Both the position numbers and the translations under genes were made by a program. A stretch of DNA of 64,000 bases from an uncultured Clostridia bacterium (GTDB taxonomy: Bacteria > Bacillota > Clostridia > TANB77 > CAG-508): the NCBI GenBank assembly GCA_944391885.1, contig CALXVE010000001.1:173-64172 (forward strand), read 5' to 3'. This document shows positions 17,183-40,634 of the stretch, one piece after another (the first letter of the stretch is position 1; every line of letters begins with the position of its first letter). The notes beneath the pieces were generated by a model that was given only the letters and a program-made list of their open reading frames with translations, ran no database searches and had not been told where the DNA came from.

Positions 17183-17491
17183 ATGGGAAGAAAATTTACA
17201 GAAATAGATGAAGAATTTATTTGTGAAAATTGTGGAAATAAAGTAGAACCACTAGGATATACATGTAGGGACCATTGCAATAATTGCCTATGTTCAAAAC
17301 ATGTGGATATAAACCCAGGCGATAGAGAAGAAACATGCCATGGACTCTTAGAACCTATTAGGGTAGAATTAGATAGCAAAAAGGGCTATGTAATTATTTA
17401 TCGTTGCAAAAAATGTGGGGCAATTCGTAAAAATAAGGCAGCAAATGATGATAATATGGATTTAATAATAGAGCTAACAACCAGGCAATAA
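17183..17491 (+). CDS. RNHCP domain protein (small Cys-rich zinc-ribbon protein)
   Basis: CENCG, RDHCNNC and CKKCG motifs in a 102-aa protein. Confidence 0.65.
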   Translation: MGRKFTEIDEEFICENCGNKVEPLGYTCRDHCNNCLCSKHVDINPGDREETCHGLLEPIRVELDSKKGYVIIYRCKKCGAIRKNKAANDDNMDLIIELTTRQ

Positions 17492-17510
17492 ATTGCCTGG
17501 TTGTTAGTTC
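17479..17510. terminator. Bidirectional terminator between the RNHCP gene and the convergent U32 peptidase gene
   Basis: Hairpin AACCAGGCAAT-AA-ATTGCCTGGTT plus a T-rich tail. Confidence 0.6.
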
Positions 17511-19962
17511 TATCTATATAAATTTCCATTTGTATATTGTGGACCTTCTAGTTTTTCGCGTATATATGCCTTATCAATTGCCTCATTTATTTCATCAATT
17601 GTCTCATCTATCATATCCAAACGTACAGAGGTAATAGGTAAATTCTTAGTGCTTATAGATAGTGTTTTGCTATTGCAAATTATTGTAACAGTTTGTATGC
17701 TGTCTGGTATAATTCTAAATTTAAAGCCAAGCCTATCTTTTAAATAATATTTATAATCTTTTTTGCAGTTGGCACCACAATCTGGGTAGCAGTGGTTGGT
17801 TTTGCCTAAAAAGCAATAGTTTGTAGCCATAATAGGTAAGTTTCCATATACAATTAATTCAGAGTCGATATTAGATGTTCTTAATATTTCATTTAAGCCT
17901 TCTTCATTTAATTCACGTGATAATGTAACACAATTTAATCCAAGCTCTTTGTATTCTTCCATAGTGTAATTATTAAAAACATTTAATGAGTAATTTCCAA
18001 TCAAATCATATTTGCCCTTGTATTTTTCTAAAAATTTAAAGTCAGCAATATTTGAAAGCACAAATCCTTTAACAGAAAATCTTGAAGTAATATCATCCAA
18101 GGAATTTAATATGATATTTTTGTAATTAGACTTTATAATGGTTGGCAAATAAATATATATATTATTATGCTCTGATAAATAATCAATAATATCTACATAA
18201 TTTTTATTAACAAAAAGTTTTAATGCTAAGTAAATTCTAGAAATCTTATCATGTTCTAATTTAGTATAATCATAATCAGTAAATAAATGCCTTAAAGATA
18301 AAGAGATTTTTGGATGTGCCAATTTTGGAATATATGTAATAGTATCTTCATGCTCAAAAGTAATTTCGGGCGGTTTTCTAAAAACTCTTTTTTCAACTTC
18401 TTTTTCCAATTTTTCAATTGCATTTCTGCGTAGTTCATTTAAACTACTAATACTTGGAACATAAAGTCCATCGTCTAAATAAACAGTGACATTTTCAAAG
18501 GTATATGGGGTGTTATTAGTCTTAGAAATCTGCTTAATAATTCTTTCAACACTAGTTGGTGTTTTTAAAGCATCAACAGGAACAACATTTGAAACAGTTT
18601 CTATTTTAATATTGTGATAAATGCCAGAAGGATGAGCATCATTTGTAGTAAATAATTCCATTTTAATAGGTTCATCTTTTTTTATTGTAATATTACAGCT
18701 AATAGGAATTTTTTTATTCTCACAATTAATATATGAAATGCGGGCTTGTTCCATAAGCTTTTTGCTTGTCACTTTATAAACCTTACAACCAATTTTAATT
18801 TTACCCTTCATCCTGCCAATAGTAACCCTAGTTCTGGCATTTGCAGTTTTAATATTTTCATTATTATACATTAACTCAGAGACAAGATATGTAGAGTTCT
18901 CAGTTTCTAGGCTAATGGAATCACCTATATCAAGAGGAGTTTCTAAATTAATGGTAATATATCCTTTTCTAGAATTATATTTCTCAACAGTACCAATATA
19001 AATGCCAATATGATTAGGCTTATCTTTAAAAACAAAACCTCTATTAGGGTTAACACCAAGATGCCCACTAGAAAAACCACCACGATTGAAAATTTGCATT
19101 AAATCTGCAATATCCTTATCATCAATAATATATTCCCTACCACTTAGTGCCATATCAATATATTTTCTATAAATTCTAGTAACAGTTGCAACATATTCAG
19201 GATTTTTCATGCGACCTTCCATTTTAAAGCATTTTACACCTGCATTAATCAGACGTGGAATATATGCAAGACCACATAAATCCTTTGGACTAAGCATATA
19301 ACCTTTATCCAATACTTTGCTTTTCTCAGATTGACCGTTTATTACTTACTGCCAATAATTCATATGGTAGCCTACAAGGGGCAGCACACTGACCACGATT
19401 TCCGTGAACGACCACCAACCGCACTAGAAAATAGGCATTGCCCAGAATAACATATACATAATGCGCCATGTATAAAAGTTTCTATCTCAACATTTGTATT
19501 ATGACAAATATATTCGATTTCATCAATAGAAAGTTCCCTGGCAAGAACAACCCTTTTAAAACCTAATTTTTCTAATTCTAAAACACCTTGCAAATTATGT
19601 GCAGTCATCTGTGTACTTGCATGAATTGGCAAATCTGGAAAATTATCAATTAAATATTTAGCCAACCCTAAATCCTGCACAATAATAGCATCAATTCCAA
19701 ATTCATAAGCTTTTTGCGCTAACTTAACAGCATCTTCAAACTCTGAGTTTTTAATTAAAGTATTTAAAGCTAAATGTGTTTTTACATTTCTAAGTTTGCA
19801 ATACATAATTGCATCTTTTAAAGAATTTTCATTAATATTTGTCGCATAAATTCTAGCATTAAATTTATCAACACCAAAATATACACTATCAGCACCATTT
19901 TGTACTGCTGCTTTTAAACAATCTAAATCTCCTGCCGGAGCCAAAAGTTCAACCTTAGGCAT
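17510..19962 (-). pseudogene. Peptidase U32 (collagenase-like, PrtC family) interrupted by two +1 frameshifts
   Basis: The N-terminal part is the 19372-19962 ORF and the C-terminal part is the 17510-19312 ORF. Between them, the conserved GNRGQCAAPCRLPYEL segment reads only in a third frame. Deleting the coding-strand C in tcaCgga (near 19404) and in aaaCggt (near 19337) restores one continuous U32 protein. Confidence 0.75.
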
Positions 19963-35551: not shown

Positions 35552-35721
35552 AATTTAGGGGAAAATGGTAAAATATGTATTTTTCTTGATTTATTTAAAA
35601 AAGTGTGATATAAACTTATATGTTGTAAATATAATAAAAATGAGGAATCATATAAAATCATGGAATAATAAGTCCACATATAGGGCTTGTTTTTTTCCGT
35701 GGGAGAAGGAGAAAAAATCAA

Positions 35722-37463
35722 TGATAAAACATTTAGTAAAATCAATAAGAGAGTATAAAAAGCCAGCAATTTTAACACCCATTTTTATGATTTTAGAAGT
35801 AGCAATGGAAATTACAATTCCATTTTTAGTAGCAAAATTAATAGATGAAGGTGTTAATGCAAATGACACAAAAGCTATTTTTATAATAGGTGCAGAACTT
35901 TTAATAGCAGCACTTTTATCGCTATTTTTTGGTGTGCAATCAGGAAAAAATGCTGCAATTGCATCAGCAGGATTTGCTAAGAATTTACGTCAAGATATGT
36001 ATGAAAAAATGCAAAAATATTCATTTTTTAATATTGATAAATTTAGCACATCAAGTATTGTAACAAGACTAACAACAGATGTAACAAACGTACAAATGGC
36101 GTTTATGATGATTATAAGGGGAGCTGTAAGAGCGCCAATTACAATTATTTGTGCTTTAGTTATGTCATTTACAATAAACCCTAAAGTTGCACTAATATTT
36201 TTAATTGCTTCACCTATACTTGGTGGTTTGCTAATATTAATAGCTAAAACAGTTCACCCAATTTTTGAAAAAGTATTTAGAACATATGATAAATTAAATA
36301 ATGTTGTGCAAGAAAATGTAAGAGGAGTAAGAGTAGTAAAATCATTTGTAAAAGAAGATGCGGAAATTAGTAAATTTGACAAAGTATCTCAAACGATTTA
36401 TGAAAACTTTTATAGAGCAGAAAAATTACTTGCATTAAATAACCCATTAATGCAATTTACAGTATATACTTGTATAACACTTATATCATGGTTTGGTGCA
36501 AAGGCAATTGTGGGTGGAAGTCTTACAACAGGAGAACTAACAAGTTTAATTACATATGCAATGCAAATTTTATCTAGCTTAATGTTGGTTTCTATGGTGT
36601 TTGTAATGATTACAATGTCACTTGAATCTGCAAGAAGAATTGTAGAAATACTAGAAGAAGTACCAGATTTAGATAACCCAGAAAAACCTGTTATGGAAGT
36701 AAAAAATGGAGATATTGAGTTTAAAAATGTAAGCTTTAGTTATGTTAAAGACAAGAAAAAATTATGCTTGCAAAATATTAATTTAAATATAAAATCTGGT
36801 CAAACAATTGGAATTATAGGTGGAACAGGAAGTTCTAAATCTTCTTTAGTGCAATTAATTCCAAGGCTATATGATGTAACAGAAGGAGAACTAAAAGTTG
36901 GTGGAGTTAATGTGAAAGATTATGACATTAAAACTCTAAGAGATGCTGTTTCAATGGTACTCCAAAAAAATGAATTATTTTCAGGTACAATTAAAGAGAA
37001 TTTAAGATGGGGAAATGAGAACGCTACAGATGATGAAATTGAAGAAGCTTGCAAATTAGCGCAGGCAGATGAATTTATTAATGGATTTATTGATAAATAT
37101 GATACACATATCGAACAAGGTGGCACAAATGTGTCAGGTGGTCAAAAGCAAAGGCTTTGCATTGCTAGAGCACTTTTGAAAAAACCAAAAATATTAATAT
37201 TAGATGATTCAACTTCTGCAGTAGATACAAAAACTGATAGCTTGATTAGAAAAGCTTTTGCTGAAAAAATTCCAAATACAACCAAAATTATAATTGCACA
37301 AAGAATTTCTTCAGTACAAGATAGTGACCAAATTATAATATTAGATAATGGAAAAATAAATGGAATAGGAACACATGAAGAACTACTAAAATCAAACAGT
37401 ATTTATCAAGAAGTTTATTATTCACAAGTAAAGGCAGGTGAAGAAGAATGTCAAAAAGCGTAA
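35722..37463 (+). CDS. ABC exporter, fused permease/ATPase (heterodimer subunit 1)
   Basis: GGAGAAGGAG RBS. Six TM helices, then an NBD with GGTGSSKSS and LSGGQKQR motifs. The ORF-track start at 35565 is probably too far upstream. Confidence 0.85.
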
Positions 37464-39331
37464 AATCTAAAAAGAAAAAAATTGATAGACAAACAATTAC
37501 TAGATTATTAGGATATGTTTTTAGAGAATATAAATTGCAATTTGCAATAGTACTTATATTAGTTGTTTTAAGCTCTCTAACAAATATTGCAAGTTCATTA
37601 TTTATAGAAAGTTTAATTGATGACTATATTTCACCTATGCTATTACAAGATAACCCAGTATTTACACCTTTACTTAAAGCATTATCAATTATGGCATGTA
37701 TATATTTAGTTGGTATAGTATCTTCTTACTTGTATAATAGGATAATGTCAAAAATATCACAAGGCACATTAAAAACAATACGTGATGAAATGTTTGCAAA
37801 AATGCAAAGATTACCTATAAAATACTTTGATACACATACACATGGTGATATTATGAGCTATTACACAAACGATACTGACACACTAAGGGAATTAATATCA
37901 AGAGGAATACCTGAAATATTTTCAATGGTTATAACACTTGTTTCAACATTTGTAGCAATGTTATGCACAAGTGCATATTTAACAGTGTTAGTTATATTCC
38001 TTGCAATTATAATGGTAAAAGTAACACAAAATATTGGTGGCAAGAGTAGCAAATACTTTGTAAGGCAACAAATAACAATTGCAAAAGCCAATGGATTTAT
38101 TGAAGAAATGATAAATGGACAAAAAGTAGTAAAAGTATTTTCACATGAAGAACAATCAATAAAAGATTTCAAAGAGATTAATGACGAATTATGCAATGCA
38201 ACAACACTTGCAAATAAATATTCTAATATTTTAATGCCGGCACTAGCAAACATAGGTAATATACAATTTGTTTTAGTTGGTGTTATTGGTGGATTACTTG
38301 CAATTTATGGAATAGGCGGTACAACTGTAGGAACAATAGCAGCATTTTTGAATTTGAGTAAAAGCTTTACAATACCAATTTCAAGATTATCACAGCAAAT
38401 TAATTCAATTGTTATGGCTATGGCAGGTGCTAAAAGAATATTTAAATTTATGGATGAAGAAAAAGAATTTGATGATGGTTATGTAACACTAGTAAATGCA
38501 GAAAGAGAGGGGAAAAACTTAAAAGAAACAGACCATTACACAGGAATTTGGGCATGGAAATACCCACACCATGATGGAAGGCTTGAATATGTAGAATTAA
38601 AAGGATATATAGAACTTACAGATGTTAACTTTGGGTATGAACCAGGAAAACTTATTTTGCATGATATTAGTCTATATGCAAAACCTGGACAAAAAATTGC
38701 ATTTGTTGGTGCAACAGGTGCAGGAAAAACTACGATTACCAACCTTTTAAACCGCTTCTATGATATAGAAGATGGAAAAATTAGATATGATGGAATTAAT
38801 ATTAATAAAATAAAAAAAGATGATTTAAGAAAATCACTTGGTATGGTTTTACAAGATGTTAATTTGTTCACAGGTACAATAAGGGAAAACATTAGATATG
38901 GAAATGAAAATGCAACAGATGAACAAGTTTATGATGCTGCAAAACTTGCAAATGCTCATAACTTTATTATGAATTTGCCAAATGGATATGATACAATGAT
39001 AGATGGAAATGGTGGAAGCTTATCACAAGGACAAAAACAATTAATATCAATAGCAAGAGCAGCTATTGCAAATCCACCTGTTATGATATTAGATGAAGCT
39101 ACTTCAAGTATTGATACAAGAACAGAAAAAGTTGTTCAAGATGGTATGGATAAACTTATGGAAGGAAGAACTGTATTTGTAATAGCTCATAGGCTTTCAA
39201 CTGTAAGAAATTCAAAAGCAATTATAGTATTAGACCATGGAAGAATTATAGAAAGAGGAGAGCACGAATACTTACTAGACCAAAAAGGTGTATACTACAG
39301 CTTATACACCGGTGCATTTGAATTAGAATAA
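37448..39331 (+). CDS. ABC exporter, fused permease/ATPase (heterodimer subunit 2)
   Basis: It overlaps the upstream gene by 16 nt. NBD motifs GATGAGKTT and LSQGQKQL are present. Confidence 0.85.
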   Translation: MSKSVKSKKKKIDRQTITRLLGYVFREYKLQFAIVLILVVLSSLTNIASSLFIESLIDDYISPMLLQDNPVFTPLLKALSIMACIYLVGIVSSYLYNRIMSKISQGTLKTIRDEMFAKMQRLPIKYFDTHTHGDIMSYYTNDTDTLRELISRGIPEIFSMVITLVSTFVAMLCTSAYLTVLVIFLAIIMVKVTQNIGGKSSKYFVRQQITIAKANGFIEEMINGQKVVKVFSHEEQSIKDFKEINDELCNATTLANKYSNILMPALANIGNIQFVLVGVIGGLLAIYGIGGTTVGTIAAFLNLSKSFTIPISRLSQQINSIVMAMAGAKRIFKFMDEEKEFDDGYVTLVNAEREGKNLKETDHYTGIWAWKYPHHDGRLEYVELKGYIELTDVNFGYEPGKLILHDISLYAKPGQKIAFVGATGAGKTTITNLLNRFYDIEDGKIRYDGININKIKKDDLRKSLGMVLQDVNLFTGTIRENIRYGNENATDEQVYDAAKLANAHNFIMNLPNGYDTMIDGNGGSLSQGQKQLISIARAAIANPPVMILDEATSSIDTRTEKVVQDGMDKLMEGRTVFVIAHRLSTVRNSKAIIVLDHGRIIERGEHEYLLDQKGVYYSLYTGAFELE

Positions 39332-39332
39332 T

Positions 39333-39570
39333 TGTGTACGGAGATTTTGACAATATTTAAAAATAATTATAATCATCACAATTGTATTATGACGTTGGTC
39401 CTTGCTGTCGCCTTCCATCCGCATGTCAAAAATAAATTTTTGACATGGGTTAAGTGGTTGGAAGGCTCTAGAACTACGCTAACGCTCCGCCTGCGCGGAC
39501 TGCACGTACATAATACAATTGTGATTTATCATATTATAGAAAAGAATTTGTCAAAAATCTCCGTACACAA
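39333..39570. mobile_element. MITE-like palindromic element with 22-bp terminal inverted repeats and a GC-rich core
   Basis: Terminal repeats TTGTGTACGGAGATTTTGACAA ... TTGTCAAAAATCTCCGTACACAA. Subterminal inverted repeats ATCACAATTGTATTATG. Central perfect hairpin CATGTCAAAAAT-AAA-TTTTTGACATG. The core motif GCTCCGCCTGCGCGGACT is shared with the element at 46593. Confidence 0.6.
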
Positions 39571-39684
39571 TTAAATACAAACTTACAAAAAGTGACAAAA
39601 ACAACAAGTTTTGAAAGTACACTTACAAAATTTGTTGGTTTTTTGTAGCATTACATTAATATGAAACATATTATGTAATGTGAG

Positions 39685-40491
39685 GTGAGAAATTTGGCAT
39701 GGTTTGAAAACTTAAACCCAGCAATTCAGGCATTAATAGCAACAATATTCACATGGGGAATAACTGCACTTGGTTCACTTACTGTATACTTTTTTAAAAA
39801 TGTTAATCAAAAAGTATTAAATACTATTTTAGGTTTTAGTGCAGGTGTAATGATAGCAGCATCATTTTGGTCACTACTTTCTCCTGCAATTGACTTATCA
39901 GGTGAACTTGGTTACATACCATGGTTATTACCAGCGCTGGGTTTTGCAATAGGGGCACTTTTTGTTTTGTTTTCTGACAAATTTTTAGACAAAGTGTTAA
40001 GAAACAGAAAAGAAGGAAGAAATGCAGCTTCTTTAAAAAAGAGTATTCTTTTAATATCTGCAATAACCATACACAATATTCCAGAAGGTATGGCAATAGG
40101 AGTAGCATTTGGTGGATTAGCAACTGAAACACCAGGCATGACTTTAATAGGAGCGCTTATGCTTGCAATTGGAATTGGTATTCAAAATTTTCCAGAAGGT
40201 GCAGCAGTATCGCTACCTTTAAGAAAAGAAGGCTTTTCAAGATTTAAAAGCTTTATGTTTGGGCAAGTTTCAGGTATTGTTGAACCAATATCAGCCGTTA
40301 TTGGAGTGTTACTTGTTCTAACTGTTAGAAGTATATTACCATTTTTACTTGCATTTGCAGCAGGTGCAATGATAGCAGTAGCAGCAAGGGAACTATTACC
40401 AGAATCAATACAAGAAAACAAAAATTTAGCAACAGTAGGTCTAATTGCAGGATTTGTGATAATGATGATATTGGACATTGCGTTGGGGTGA
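39685..40491 (+). CDS. zupT: ZIP-family metal (zinc) transporter, ZupT-like
   Basis: Eight TM helices with the HNIPEGMA and QNFPEGAA signature helices. Confidence 0.8.
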   Translation: MRNLAWFENLNPAIQALIATIFTWGITALGSLTVYFFKNVNQKVLNTILGFSAGVMIAASFWSLLSPAIDLSGELGYIPWLLPALGFAIGALFVLFSDKFLDKVLRNRKEGRNAASLKKSILLISAITIHNIPEGMAIGVAFGGLATETPGMTLIGALMLAIGIGIQNFPEGAAVSLPLRKEGFSRFKSFMFGQVSGIVEPISAVIGVLLVLTVRSILPFLLAFAAGAMIAVAARELLPESIQENKNLATVGLIAGFVIMMILDIALG

Positions 40492-40495
40492 TTAA

Positions 40496-40540
40496 TTGGG
40501 GACGGGTCCCAGTCACCCTATTTAGGGTGACTCGGGACAT
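40496..40540. repeat. GGGAC-box intergenic repeat (TTGGGGACGGGTCCCAG ... CGGGAC)
   Basis: The 17-nt box matches 26149-26165 at 16 of 17 positions. It lies immediately 3' of the ZIP gene. Confidence 0.5.
40512..40531. promoter_or_regulatory. Perfect 20-bp palindrome GTCACCCTATTTAGGGTGAC, candidate CsoR-type operator of copZA
   Basis: ACCCTA..TAGGGT inverted repeat about 100 nt upstream of copZ. A second palindrome ATATCTCGAGATAT lies at 40539-40552. Confidence 0.3.
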
Positions 40541-40634
40541 ATCTCGAGATATATCTTTACAAAATCTCCTTTCGGCTATATAATACATAGTTGAAAGGAG
40601 ACTTATTAATTAAAAATAGAAAGGATGATTTTAA

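What the first reader, a model, noticed from the sequence alone, without database searches (positions are those of the whole stretch)
39333..39570. MITE-like palindromic element (238 bp) inserted between an ABC exporter and the ZIP transporter gene
It has perfect 22-bp terminal inverted repeats (TTGTGTACGGAGATTTTGACAA), additional subterminal inverted repeats, and a GC-rich core forming a perfect 12-bp stem hairpin. It begins one base after the ABC gene stop codon. The 80-aa ORF called inside it is almost certainly spurious. The core motif CTGCGCGGACT also appears in the element at 46593, so these may be members of one non-autonomous mobile or structured-RNA family.
Basis: seen in the sequence. 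Interest (0 to 1): 0.55.

Follow-up and report, generated by a model that had tools for sequence, protein, structure and literature searches.

The report
Flip-prone palindromic insert, REP-like core
A real 245-bp non-coding palindrome sits just after an ABC-exporter gene in an uncultured gut Clostridia bacterium; related strains carry it flipped or half-deleted, and its GC-rich hairpin matches a repeat that is abundant in soil bacteria, but it has not been shown to be a multi-copy transposon.

Summary
The palindrome is real: window 39329-39573 folds at about -99 kcal/mol (z about -12) on either strand. The outer repeats are 20 bp perfect, then one unpaired T, then 5 bp; they are not a perfect 22 bp. 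The perfect 12-bp hairpin is AT-rich. The 80-aa ORF is spurious.

The element is nested. A 151-bp inner module (39375-39525, with 17-bp perfect termini and a GC-rich asymmetric core) lies inside an AT-rich outer repeat. It sits between the ABC stop codon and an AT-rich terminator-like hairpin.

It is specific to this lineage; the sister species lacks it. Across 19 assemblies of the locus it occurs in four states:
- window orientation
- whole element inverted
- two different internal deletions

I found no second copy, no transposase and no clear target-site duplication. Rfam has no match.

A 20-mer from its core hairpin (TCCGCCTGCGCGGACTGCAC) is identical to the core of a dispersed intergenic repeat in about 70% GC soil contigs, with more than 90 copies retrieved. 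One of those contigs encodes a LepA closest to Longimicrobium. The element at 46592 shares part of this hairpin.

Verdict: a REP/MITE-like palindromic insertion and a hotspot for rearrangement. Classic MITE status is unproven. Interest is moderate.

The parts
39329..39353 (.). Outer inverted-repeat arm, left. It includes the ABC gene's TAA stop codon (39329-39331).
   Evidence: 20 bp perfect with the right arm, then a 1-nt T-run difference, then GACAA. This arm is highly variable between strains.
39548..39573 (.). Outer inverted-repeat arm, right.
   Evidence: It is degenerate in L092 and in the inverted alleles.
39354..39374 (.). Left AT-rich spacer. It is not complementary to the right spacer (39526-39547).
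   Evidence: It forms an internal loop in the folds. 7 of 21 columns vary between strains. A 12-nt deletion spanning the inner end of the left outer arm and the start of this spacer occurs in L094 and in the inverted alleles.
39375..39525 (.). Conserved 151-bp inner module, bounded by perfect 17-bp inverted termini ATCACAATTGTATTATG / CATAATACAATTGTGAT.
   Evidence: pair I6. 10 of 151 columns vary among 5 strains, against 31.7% of third codon positions in the adjacent ABC gene. In a 4-strain set, 4 of 151 vary, against 14.3% (ABC) and 10.5% (ZIP).
39422..39447 (.). Central perfect 12-bp AT-rich hairpin at the tip of the palindrome.
   Evidence: pair I5.
39465..39490 (+). Asymmetric 26-nt stretch with no partner in the left half of the palindrome.
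   Evidence: Unpaired in the fold. My own alignment of the right half against the reverse complement of the left half shows no partner. Only 1 variable column.
39486..39506 (+). REP-like GC hairpin UCCGC-CUGC-GCGGA followed by CUGCACG. Its 20-mer, 39486-39505, is identical to the core of the soil repeat family.
   Evidence: more than 120 metagenome contigs matched, about 94 of them distinct family copies. A covariance model of the soil family hits only this site in the window (23.5 bits, E 0.003).
39424..39433 (+). Direct repeat TGTCAAAAAT, also present at 39549-39558. The two copies are the end points of deletion form C.
   Evidence: family D3. L002 and L091 lack the 125 bp between the copies.
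39357..39494 (.). Segment missing in deletion form D.
   Evidence: L006, L096, L311 and L312 read ...GAAAATAT|GCGGACTGCAC....
39332..39574 (+). 80-aa ORF, spurious.
   Evidence: stop codon in L092; frameshift; only one ORF call in 5.8 billion protein clusters, and that one reads through an inverted allele.
39597..39648 (+). AT-rich hairpin followed by TTTTTT: the putative terminator of the ABC operon, downstream of the element.
   Evidence: pair I2. It is conserved in all strains, and the stem substitutions in L095 read as paired. The consensus scanner did not call it, so this is inferred.
46592..46752 (+). Second nested palindrome (E2), between the dockerin and cohesin genes. It shares GCTCC..CTGCGCGGACT with the element under study.
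   Evidence: The soil-family model did not detect it.

Best explanation
The feature is a lineage-specific, non-coding, nested palindromic insertion of the REP/MITE kind.

The unit that matters is the 151-bp inner module (39375-39525), not the outer 22-bp repeats. The inner module sits in the loop of an AT-rich outer inverted repeat, immediately after the ABC-exporter stop codon and upstream of the operon's AT-rich terminator-like hairpin. Its GC-rich hairpin (UCCGC-CUGC-GCGGA + CUGCACG) matches the core hairpin of a dispersed intergenic repeat that is abundant in soil contigs of about 70% GC. One of those contigs has a LepA closest to Longimicrobium.

**Shown**
- The structure.
- Absence from the sister species.
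- Four structural states among strains.
- A conserved interior against decaying outer arms.
- Identity of the hairpin to the soil repeat.

**Inferred**
- It is co-transcribed as the 3' UTR of the ABC mRNA. There it forms a very stable stem-loop, the usual role ascribed to REP/ERIC-type elements: a barrier to 3' exonucleases or a transcriptional insulator.
- At the DNA level the palindrome drives inversion of the whole element (recombination or template switching between its arms) and slipped-strand deletions.
- The hairpin is probably the recognition site of whatever protein once mobilised it (a hairpin-binding HUH/RAYT-like enzyme). That enzyme was not found.
For: - **Structure:**
- **Not coding:**
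- **Not a known RNA family:**
- **Sister species lacks it.** In L085/L086 (ABC protein 87% identical) the spacer is 163 nt, not 363 nt.
- **Four states in 19 assemblies of the locus**:
  - window orientation in 9 (L001, L003, L082, L083, L092, L094 and the window itself in full; L084 and three Logan contigs partial)
  - inverted in 4 (L093, L095, L097, L313)
  - deletion C in 2
  - deletion D in 4
- **The inversion is not an assembly artefact.** It appears in independent assemblies at 3-16x coverage, and in those alleles the arms match perfectly over only about 6 bp or less.
- **The states sit on closely related backgrounds.** L094 (window orientation), L095 (inverted) and L096 (deletion D) have ABC DNA 99.3-99.6% identical.
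- **Interior conserved, arms not.** The interior varies at 2.6-6.6% of columns. Neighbouring third codon positions vary at 10-32%. The outer arms and spacers vary at 18-42%.
- **Soil repeat.** More than 120 contigs matched, about 94 distinct copies, mostly intergenic, next to unrelated genes and with no fixed orientation. Its first hairpin covaries. The LepA of one carrying contig is 90-93% identical to Longimicrobium.
- **Other multi-copy palindromes in the clade:** F2 in L085.
- **Position:** both elements lie just after stop codons of co-oriented genes.
Against: - No second copy of the element could be found anywhere, so 'repeat element' rests on the shared hairpin alone.
- Similarity to the soil family is limited to about 21 nt. 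The element at 46592 is not recognised by the soil-family model.
- The 20-mer also gave about 20-25 chance hits inside GC-rich coding regions. Convergence of a short GC hairpin cannot be fully excluded.
- Deletion alleles that remove the hairpin or the interior circulate in 6 assemblies, so the interior is dispensable.
- The adjacent intergenic region is equally conserved (3.5% of columns variable). The low diversity may therefore be regional rather than selection on the element.
- No compensatory base changes support an RNA structure.
- Transcription, any terminator function and any mobilising enzyme are all untested.
Confidence: 0.5

Rival explanations
1. Classic MITE: a deletion derivative of an insertion sequence, defined by its 20-25-bp terminal inverted repeats. 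A DDE transposase encoded elsewhere cuts and pastes it, and TA or AATT is duplicated on insertion.
For: - Terminal inverted repeats begin TG...CA.
- In the window strain the repeats are flanked by the self-complementary TA / AATT.
- The element is absent from the sister species.
- It is found in both orientations at the same site.
- A two-copy palindromic element (F2) exists in the sister species.
Against: - The 17-mer terminal repeat gave only 74 single, chance-level hits in 185,579 genomes (about 70 expected by my estimate), and none extended.
- No second copy in 272 kb of same-clade sequence.
- The flanking bases differ between strains (TAAT / TAAC / TAAA / TAGT), so no target duplication can be defined.
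- The terminal repeats are the least conserved part.
- No transposase in the window.
- The element at 46592 has entirely different termini.
Confidence: 0.2
2. Phase-variable invertible switch ('inverton'): a site-specific recombinase flips the 205-bp segment between the inverted repeats to change expression of the ABC exporter or the ZIP transporter.
For: - Both orientations exist in natural populations between identical flanks.
- The size and repeat length resemble those of known gut invertons (my knowledge of Jiang et al. 2019 and of the C. difficile flg and cwpV switches).
- The inverted orientation occurs on two interior haplotypes that differ at 7 sites. This allows more than one flip.
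Against: - Orientation tracks lineage. Three of the four inverted assemblies carry one nearly identical allele. All four share the same derived left junction, which fits a single event.
- The repeats are degenerate in the inverted alleles.
- The whole element flips, arms included.
- No convincing promoter lies inside it, and a terminator-like hairpin separates it from ZIP.
- The interior is itself palindromic, so flipping changes little.
- No recombinase gene in the window.
Confidence: 0.1
3. A stand-alone structured RNA gene, or a cis-regulatory RNA for the downstream ZIP zinc/iron transporter.
For: - Very stable fold.
- Conserved interior.
- The two most recurrent polymorphisms (39417, 39421) toggle A-U and G.U pairs on the + strand.
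Against: - No Rfam match.
- No promoter.
- It is separated from ZIP by a terminator-like hairpin.
- In some strains a 1.8-kb gene cassette lies between it and ZIP.
- It works in neither fixed orientation nor fixed form, since inverted and deleted alleles persist.
- The sister species has the same ZIP leader without it.
Confidence: 0.08
4. An ordinary intergenic palindrome, for example an overgrown terminator, whose resemblance to other sequences is chance.
For: - It lies at the 3' end of an operon.
- It is single-copy in everything searched.
Against: - No U-tract follows it; the terminator-like hairpin lies further downstream.
- Its z-score of -12 and 245-bp size are far beyond the terminators in the window. 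The strongest, 17468-17513, is a 22-bp hairpin.
- An 11-mer is shared with the element at 46592 against 0.01 expected.
- A 20-mer is identical to a high-copy repeat.
Confidence: 0.07

Closest known systems
REP / BIME / REPIN elements (repetitive extragenic palindromes, mobilised by RAYT Y1 transposases; GTAG-tagged REPs of Di Nocera et al. 2013, PMC3733652)
   Same: - A short GC-rich hairpin with conserved unpaired flanks.
- Position just downstream of genes.
- Embedding in larger foldable structures.
- The matching soil repeat is dispersed, intergenic, independent of its neighbouring genes, and occurs singly or in tandem or inverted groups.
- On its reverse strand the soil repeat reads G(T/C)AG at the hairpin's 5' edge.
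   Different: - Only one or two hairpin-bearing elements were seen in 64 kb, not tens to hundreds.
- In this hairpin the AG of G(Y)AG is base-paired, whereas the REP tag is unpaired.
- The hairpin sits inside long AT-rich palindromic arms.
- No RAYT was found.
- The paper does not mention Firmicutes or Clostridia.
Bacterial MITEs such as Correia elements (Neisseria), ERIC/IRU (enterobacteria), RUP/BOX (pneumococcus) and bcr1 (Bacillus cereus). Comparison is from my own knowledge.
   Same: - 100-250-bp non-coding elements with terminal inverted repeats.
- They fold into long hairpins.
- They insert next to genes and are co-transcribed.
- They vary in presence between strains.
   Different: - No demonstrated multiple copies.
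- No target-site duplication.
- No parent insertion sequence.
- The termini decay faster than the core.
Invertons / invertible promoters of gut bacteria. Comparison is from my own knowledge.
   Same: - A segment of about 200 bp between inverted repeats of about 20 bp.
- Found in both orientations in metagenomes.
   Different: - No promoter.
- No nearby recombinase.
- Orientation is fixed by lineage.
- The interior is itself palindromic.

Membership tests
MITE | Terminal inverted repeats | tested here: met
   20 bp perfect, then a 1-nt bulge, then 5 bp. An inner 17-bp perfect pair is also present.
MITE | Multiple copies sharing the termini in one genome | tested here: not met
   One copy in the 64-kb window. 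None elsewhere in 272 kb of same-clade contigs. Only chance single hits in 185,579 genomes. The complete source genome could not be searched.
MITE | Target-site duplication flanking the element | tested here: inconclusive
   TA or AATT is possible in the window strain, but both are self-complementary. The left junction differs in other strains.
MITE | Cognate autonomous insertion sequence or transposase with the same ends | tested here: not met
   No transposase among the window ORFs scanned. No paired hits of the terminal repeat in any genome. The rest of the genome was not testable.
MITE | Empty site in relatives | tested here: inconclusive
   The sister species L085/L086 lacks the element, but its intergenic sequence is too diverged to give a clean empty site. 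Part of it resembles the left arm and spacer.
REP / REPIN | Short GC-rich stem-loop with a conserved unpaired GTAG-type tag | tested here: inconclusive
   The hairpin UCCGC-CUGC-GCGGA is present. Its reverse strand reads GTGCAG-TCCGC..., so the AG of the tag is paired rather than free.
REP / REPIN | High copy number within the genome | tested here: inconclusive
   Two hairpin-bearing elements lie 7 kb apart in the window. The matching family has more than 90 copies, but in contigs of a different phylum. The whole source genome was not available.
REP / REPIN | Associated RAYT (Y1/HUH) transposase gene | not testable with these tools
   None in the window. The 83 ORFs next to soil copies fall into 101 unrelated families, of which only the top 25 were listed.
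REP / REPIN | Location downstream of coding regions, between co-oriented or convergent genes | tested here: met
   Both elements start at or within about 10 nt of a stop codon between co-oriented genes. Soil copies favour the 3' ends of genes.
Inverton | Both orientations present within one strain or population, with a dedicated recombinase | not testable with these tools
No recombinase in the window.
Inverton | Promoter or other orientation-dependent signal inside the segment | tested here: not met
   Only weak promoter-like matches, fewer than in shuffles (5 against 8.6). The best -35 box is deleted in several alleles.
Any Rfam 15 RNA family | Covariance-model score at or near the gathering threshold | tested here: not met
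   No hit in the window at gathering score. The best hit at E<=10 is noise. The soil repeat reaches only 25 bits against CRISPR-DR28, whose gathering score is 35.
Intrinsic terminator | GC-rich stem followed directly by a U-tract | tested here: not met
   The element ends ...CCGTACACAATTAAATAC with no T-run. The scanner did not call it.

The most novel reading that the evidence does not exclude
The 151-bp inner module and the core of the element at 46592 belong to an undescribed family of hairpin elements that crosses phyla, from gut Clostridia to soil Gemmatimonadota-like bacteria. The family is defined by the hairpin (G)AAG-UCCGC-CUGC-GCGGACU-GCAC. Members insert into the loops of existing AT-rich hairpins at gene ends and are flipped or excised by a hairpin-recognising enzyme that has not been identified. 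The strain-to-strain inversions would then be enzyme-driven rather than accidents of a palindrome.
Probability: 0.12. Interest if true: 0.7.

Novelty: new variant of a known kind. Interest (0 to 1): 0.42.

Why it matters
- **Practical.** The element breaks assemblies: three Logan contigs start inside it. It also produces a false protein call (P0121). It marks a hotspot of structural variation (inversion, two deletions, adjacent cassette gain and loss) in an uncultured gut Clostridia species. This shows how palindromic intergenic elements shape strain diversity.
- **Conceptual.** A 20-nt hairpin is shared between a 29% GC gut Firmicute and a high-copy repeat in about 70% GC soil contigs, and it is absent from Rfam. 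If this is not convergence, it points to an unrecognised and very widely distributed REP-like element, possibly with a conserved protein partner.

Tried and rejected
- **Rfam.** Whole window at gathering score, and both elements at E<=10: nothing.
- **BLAST of the element** against plasmids and phages: nothing.
- **Genome-collection scan** with the 17-mer terminal repeat: 74 single hits, about the roughly 70 I expected by chance. None extended and none was paired. Three hits in Gastranaerophilales MAGs from the same study looked suggestive but were chance.
- **Viral-contig scans.** The generic core pattern gave 93 chance hits in coding DNA. The 20-mer and the F2 core gave none.
- **The 80-aa ORF as a proxy for other copies.** In 1.84 billion representatives and 5.8 billion clusters only P0121 matched, and it is the same locus in inverted form. 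The other hits are tandem-repeat artefacts.
- **Covariance model of the soil repeat against the window.** Only the element under study was hit. The element at 46592, the hairpin after ZIP and everything else were not.
- **tRNA-like, SRP-like, RNase P-like, group II intron domain V, retron, integron attC, CRISPR array and hammerhead readings.** I considered these from sequence motifs. I dropped them because Rfam gave no support, there is no reverse transcriptase or cas context, the attC core sites do not fit, and the copies are not arrayed.
- **Fur/Zur-box-like matches** in the AT spacers: judged chance in a 29% GC genome.
- **Compensatory base changes among alleles:** none convincing.
- **Gene association of the soil repeat:** none; 101 unrelated families next to it.
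- **Plasmid BLAST of the soil unit:** only chance hits.

Full report
**What is there.** Window 39329-39573 is a long imperfect palindrome. As RNA it folds at -98.9 kcal/mol on the + strand and -100.5 on the - strand. The z-scores are about -12, and none of 200 shuffles came close. A sliding fold scan of the whole window picks out four outliers:
- this element
- a second palindrome at 46592-46752
- a GC-rich hairpin just after the ZIP gene (about 40485-40550)
- an ordinary bidirectional terminator at 17468-17513

**Anatomy.** The element is nested.
- Outer arms are 39329-39353 and 39548-39573. They are 20 bp perfect, including the TAA stop of the ABC gene, then differ by one T, then continue as GACAA/TTGTC.
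- Two non-complementary AT spacers (21 and 22 nt) follow.
- Inside lies a 151-bp inner module, 39375-39525, bounded by perfect 17-bp inverted termini.
- The inner module contains GCCTTCC/GGAAGGC stems and a perfect but AT-rich 12-bp tip hairpin (39422-39447).
- On its 3' side only, it has a 26-nt unpaired stretch followed by the GC hairpin UCCGC-CUGC-GCGGA and CUGCACG (39486-39506).

**Context.** All genes from 35565 to 48654 are on the + strand: two ABC exporter subunits, the element, a ZIP transporter, a copZ-like gene, a P-type ATPase, a Na/Ca exchanger, a dockerin protein, the second palindrome, a cohesin protein and MscL. Downstream of the element, 39597-39648 is an AT-rich hairpin followed by T6. 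It is conserved in all strains. I read it as the ABC operon terminator, although the consensus scanner did not call it. If so, the element lies in the 3' UTR. No transposase or recombinase appears among the 28 of 44 window ORFs that I scanned. The organism is an uncultured Clostridia bacterium from gut metagenomes with 29.4% GC.

**Not coding, not a known RNA.** Several facts rule out the 80-aa ORF:
- a stop codon in L092
- a frameshift from T-run length in L082
- disruption by inversion or deletion in other strains

In 5.8 billion protein clusters only one ORF call overlaps the element (P0121), and it reads through an inverted allele. Rfam 15 gives nothing at gathering score for the window and only noise at E<=10.

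**Population variation.** I used the flanking ABC and ZIP proteins to fetch contigs. Nineteen assemblies of the locus (the window plus 18 fetched contigs) show four states:
- **A, window orientation.** The window, L001, L003, L082, L083, L092, L094, partial L084, and the Logan contigs L004, L005 and L007 that start inside the element.
- **B, whole element inverted between unchanged flanks, arms included.** L093, L095, L097 and L313. For example, window 39361-39573 aligns in reverse to L093 at 97.2%, while the ABC and ZIP flanks are collinear.
- **C, a 125-bp deletion between the two direct copies of TGTCAAAAAT.** L002 and L091.
- **D, a 138-bp deletion of 39357-39494.** L006, L096, L311 and L312.

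The inverted contigs come from independent assemblies at 3-16x coverage. Their arms match perfectly over only about 6 bp or less, so an assembler flip is unlikely. L094 (A), L095 (B) and L096 (D) have ABC DNA 99.3-99.6% identical, so the states turn over quickly relative to point substitutions.

Three B assemblies carry one nearly identical allele. L313 carries a different interior (7 differences) but the same derived left junction. One flip followed by recombination, or two flips, both fit. This is not evidence of routine phase switching.

The sister species (L085/L086, ABC protein 87% identical, same gene order) lacks the element. Its spacer is 163 nt rather than 363 nt. The sequence is too diverged for a clean empty site, and part of it resembles the left arm and spacer.

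**Which part is conserved.** Among five strains:
- the inner module varies at 10 of 151 columns (6.6%)
- third codon positions of the adjacent ABC gene vary at 31.7%
- the outer arms and spacers vary at 33-42%

In a four-strain set:
- the inner module varies at 2.6%
- ABC third positions vary at 14.3% and ZIP third positions at 10.5%
- the outer portions vary at 18-42%

So the 'TIRs' decay fastest and the interior is kept. Two caveats apply. The neighbouring intergenic stretch is about equally conserved (3.5%). Deletion alleles lacking half the interior persist, so the interior is not essential.

**Search for copies.**
- No second copy of either repeat pair occurs in the window or in 272 kb of same-clade contigs.
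- The 17-mer terminal repeat gave 74 single hits in 185,579 representative genomes, close to the roughly 70 I expected by chance. None was paired and none extended.
- Plasmid, phage and viral collections gave nothing.

The defining multi-copy property of a MITE is therefore not shown. No consistent target duplication exists either: the left junction reads TAAT, TAAC, TAAA or TAGT in different strains.

**The unexpected link.** A metagenome scan with the 20-mer of the GC hairpin (TCCGCCTGCGCGGACTGCAC) stopped at its 120-contig limit. About 20-25 hits are chance matches inside GC-rich coding DNA. About 94 are distinct copies of one repeat unit. The unit consists of:
- a 5-bp hairpin with a UGAA loop, whose stem covaries (A-U, G-C, U-A and C-G at two positions)
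- a linker (GCUNCAAC..GCACGAAG)
- the invariant hairpin AGUCCGC-CUGC-GCGGACU
- GCAC
- flanks that pair in about half the cells when scored in a fixed register

Other properties of the soil copies:
- They are mostly intergenic and have no fixed orientation.
- They lean towards the 3' ends of genes.
- They lie next to 101 unrelated Pfam families.
- They occur singly, in tandem (22 of 94) or as inverted pairs (7 of 94).
- At least 26 loci belong to one assembly, JAESFL01, at about 70% GC. One of its contigs (L193) encodes a LepA 90-93% identical to Longimicrobium, a member of the Gemmatimonadota.
- A second group of contigs has 60-65% GC.
- The unit is not in Rfam. The only weak hit is 25 bits to CRISPR-DR28.

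On the reverse strand the unit reads G(T/C)AG at the 5' edge of the palindrome. This is the style of the GTAG-tagged REPs described by Di Nocera et al. (PMC3733652), although here the AG is paired.

A covariance model built from the soil copies hits only this element in the window (23.5 bits, E about 0.003). The similarity does not extend beyond about 21 nt. The element at 46592, which carries GAAG-CUCC-CUGCGCGGACU, is not detected. I judge a chance match to the consensus of a high-copy repeat improbable, by my own rough estimate on the order of 1 in 500 or less. It is not excluded.

**Other palindromes in the clade.** The sister species carries a different 145-nt palindromic element, F2, in two copies about 93% identical. 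One copy lies at the site orthologous to the 46592 element. The other is nested inside a palindrome with 60-bp arms. The right arm of the 46592 element is homologous to native sequence in the sister species. The recurring picture is a structured inner module sitting inside an AT-rich outer hairpin at a gene end. This suggests either insertion into pre-existing hairpin loops or inverted duplication of the flank. That is inference.

**Mechanism I commit to** (confidence about 0.5). The element is a REP/MITE-like non-coding palindromic insertion and is probably no longer mobile.
- It is transcribed as the tail of the ABC mRNA. There its stem-loop would act as a 3' barrier or insulator, as proposed for REP and ERIC elements (inferred).
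- Its DNA palindrome causes whole-element inversion and slipped-strand deletions. The outcomes are shown; the mechanism is inferred.
- The conserved GC hairpin is probably the handle of a hairpin-binding mobilising protein, which was not found.

**Rivals:**
- classic MITE, 0.2
- phase-variable inverton, 0.1
- stand-alone or ZIP-regulatory RNA, 0.08
- ordinary palindrome with chance resemblances, 0.07

**Verdict.** The MITE reading is partly supported: the general kind is right, but the defining features are unproven and the emphasis on the terminal repeats is misplaced. Novelty: a new variant of a known kind. Interest is moderate (0.42), driven by the population-level flipping and the hairpin shared across phyla.

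Noticed in passing
window 40485-40550; L082 12120-12215: A GC-rich hairpin starts at the ZIP stop codon. In strain L082 it is a longer palindrome of about 95 nt (GTGATTAAT...ATTAATCAC), followed by a 4HBT thioesterase gene that the window lacks. Window 40537-40601 replaces L082 12175-12794, so a deletion breakpoint lies inside this palindrome.
   Followed up: partly
L085 17013-17160 and 19543-19680: The sister species carries a different palindromic repeat of about 145 nt (F2) in two copies about 93% identical. One copy is nested in a palindrome with 60-bp arms. The other lies at the site orthologous to the window's 46592 element.
   Followed up: partly
between window 39644 and 39640 (seen in L002, L083, L094, L096, L311, L312; partial in L091): A 1.8-kb cassette (an AAA_14/DUF4143 ATPase plus a 164-aa ORF) is inserted just after the AT-rich terminator-like hairpin in many strains. 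It is absent from the window.
   Followed up: no
after window 40487 (L083, L095, L097): In some strains synteny ends right after ZIP. DUF3792, HD and SecDF genes replace the copper-ATPase / Na-Ca exchanger / dockerin / cohesin / MscL block of the window.
   Followed up: no
window 39649-39680: The inverted repeat CATTACAT...ATGTAATG lies just upstream of the ZIP ribosome-binding site. It is conserved even in the sister species, so it may be an operator or a leader structure for ZIP.
   Followed up: no
window 39597-39648: This is an AT-rich terminator-like hairpin. The three substitutions in L095 (A>T, T>C, G>A) read as keeping or improving pairing in the stem.
   Followed up: partly
window 17510-19312 and 19372-19962 (- strand): A U32 peptidase (collagenase-like) is split into two adjacent ORFs. 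This is either a frameshift or pseudogene, or a genuine two-gene arrangement.
   Followed up: no
metagenome loci L191-L310 (e.g. L281 866-947, L263 around 720): A dispersed intergenic repeat in about 70% GC soil contigs (one contig of the JAESFL01 assembly has a Longimicrobium-like LepA) and in a second group at 60-65% GC. It consists of a covarying UGAA-loop hairpin, a linker and an invariant AGUCCGC-CUGC-GCGGACU hairpin. It is not in Rfam. In the lower-GC group it forms palindromes of about 190 nt with an inverted partner unit.
   Followed up: partly
L004, L005, L007 (contigs start at window 39507 or 39476): Several Logan contigs begin inside the palindrome. The element breaks short-read assemblies.
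   Followed up: no
window 39417 and 39421: The two most recurrent polymorphisms in the inner module toggle A-U and G.U pairs in the + strand fold. This is a weak hint of RNA-level constraint, but the sample is too small to test it.
   Followed up: partly
proteins P0122, P0125: These are spurious ORFs translated across tandem DNA repeats in other metagenomes (one looks tRNA-derived). They show weak similarity to the element's ORF and are probably compositional.
   Followed up: no
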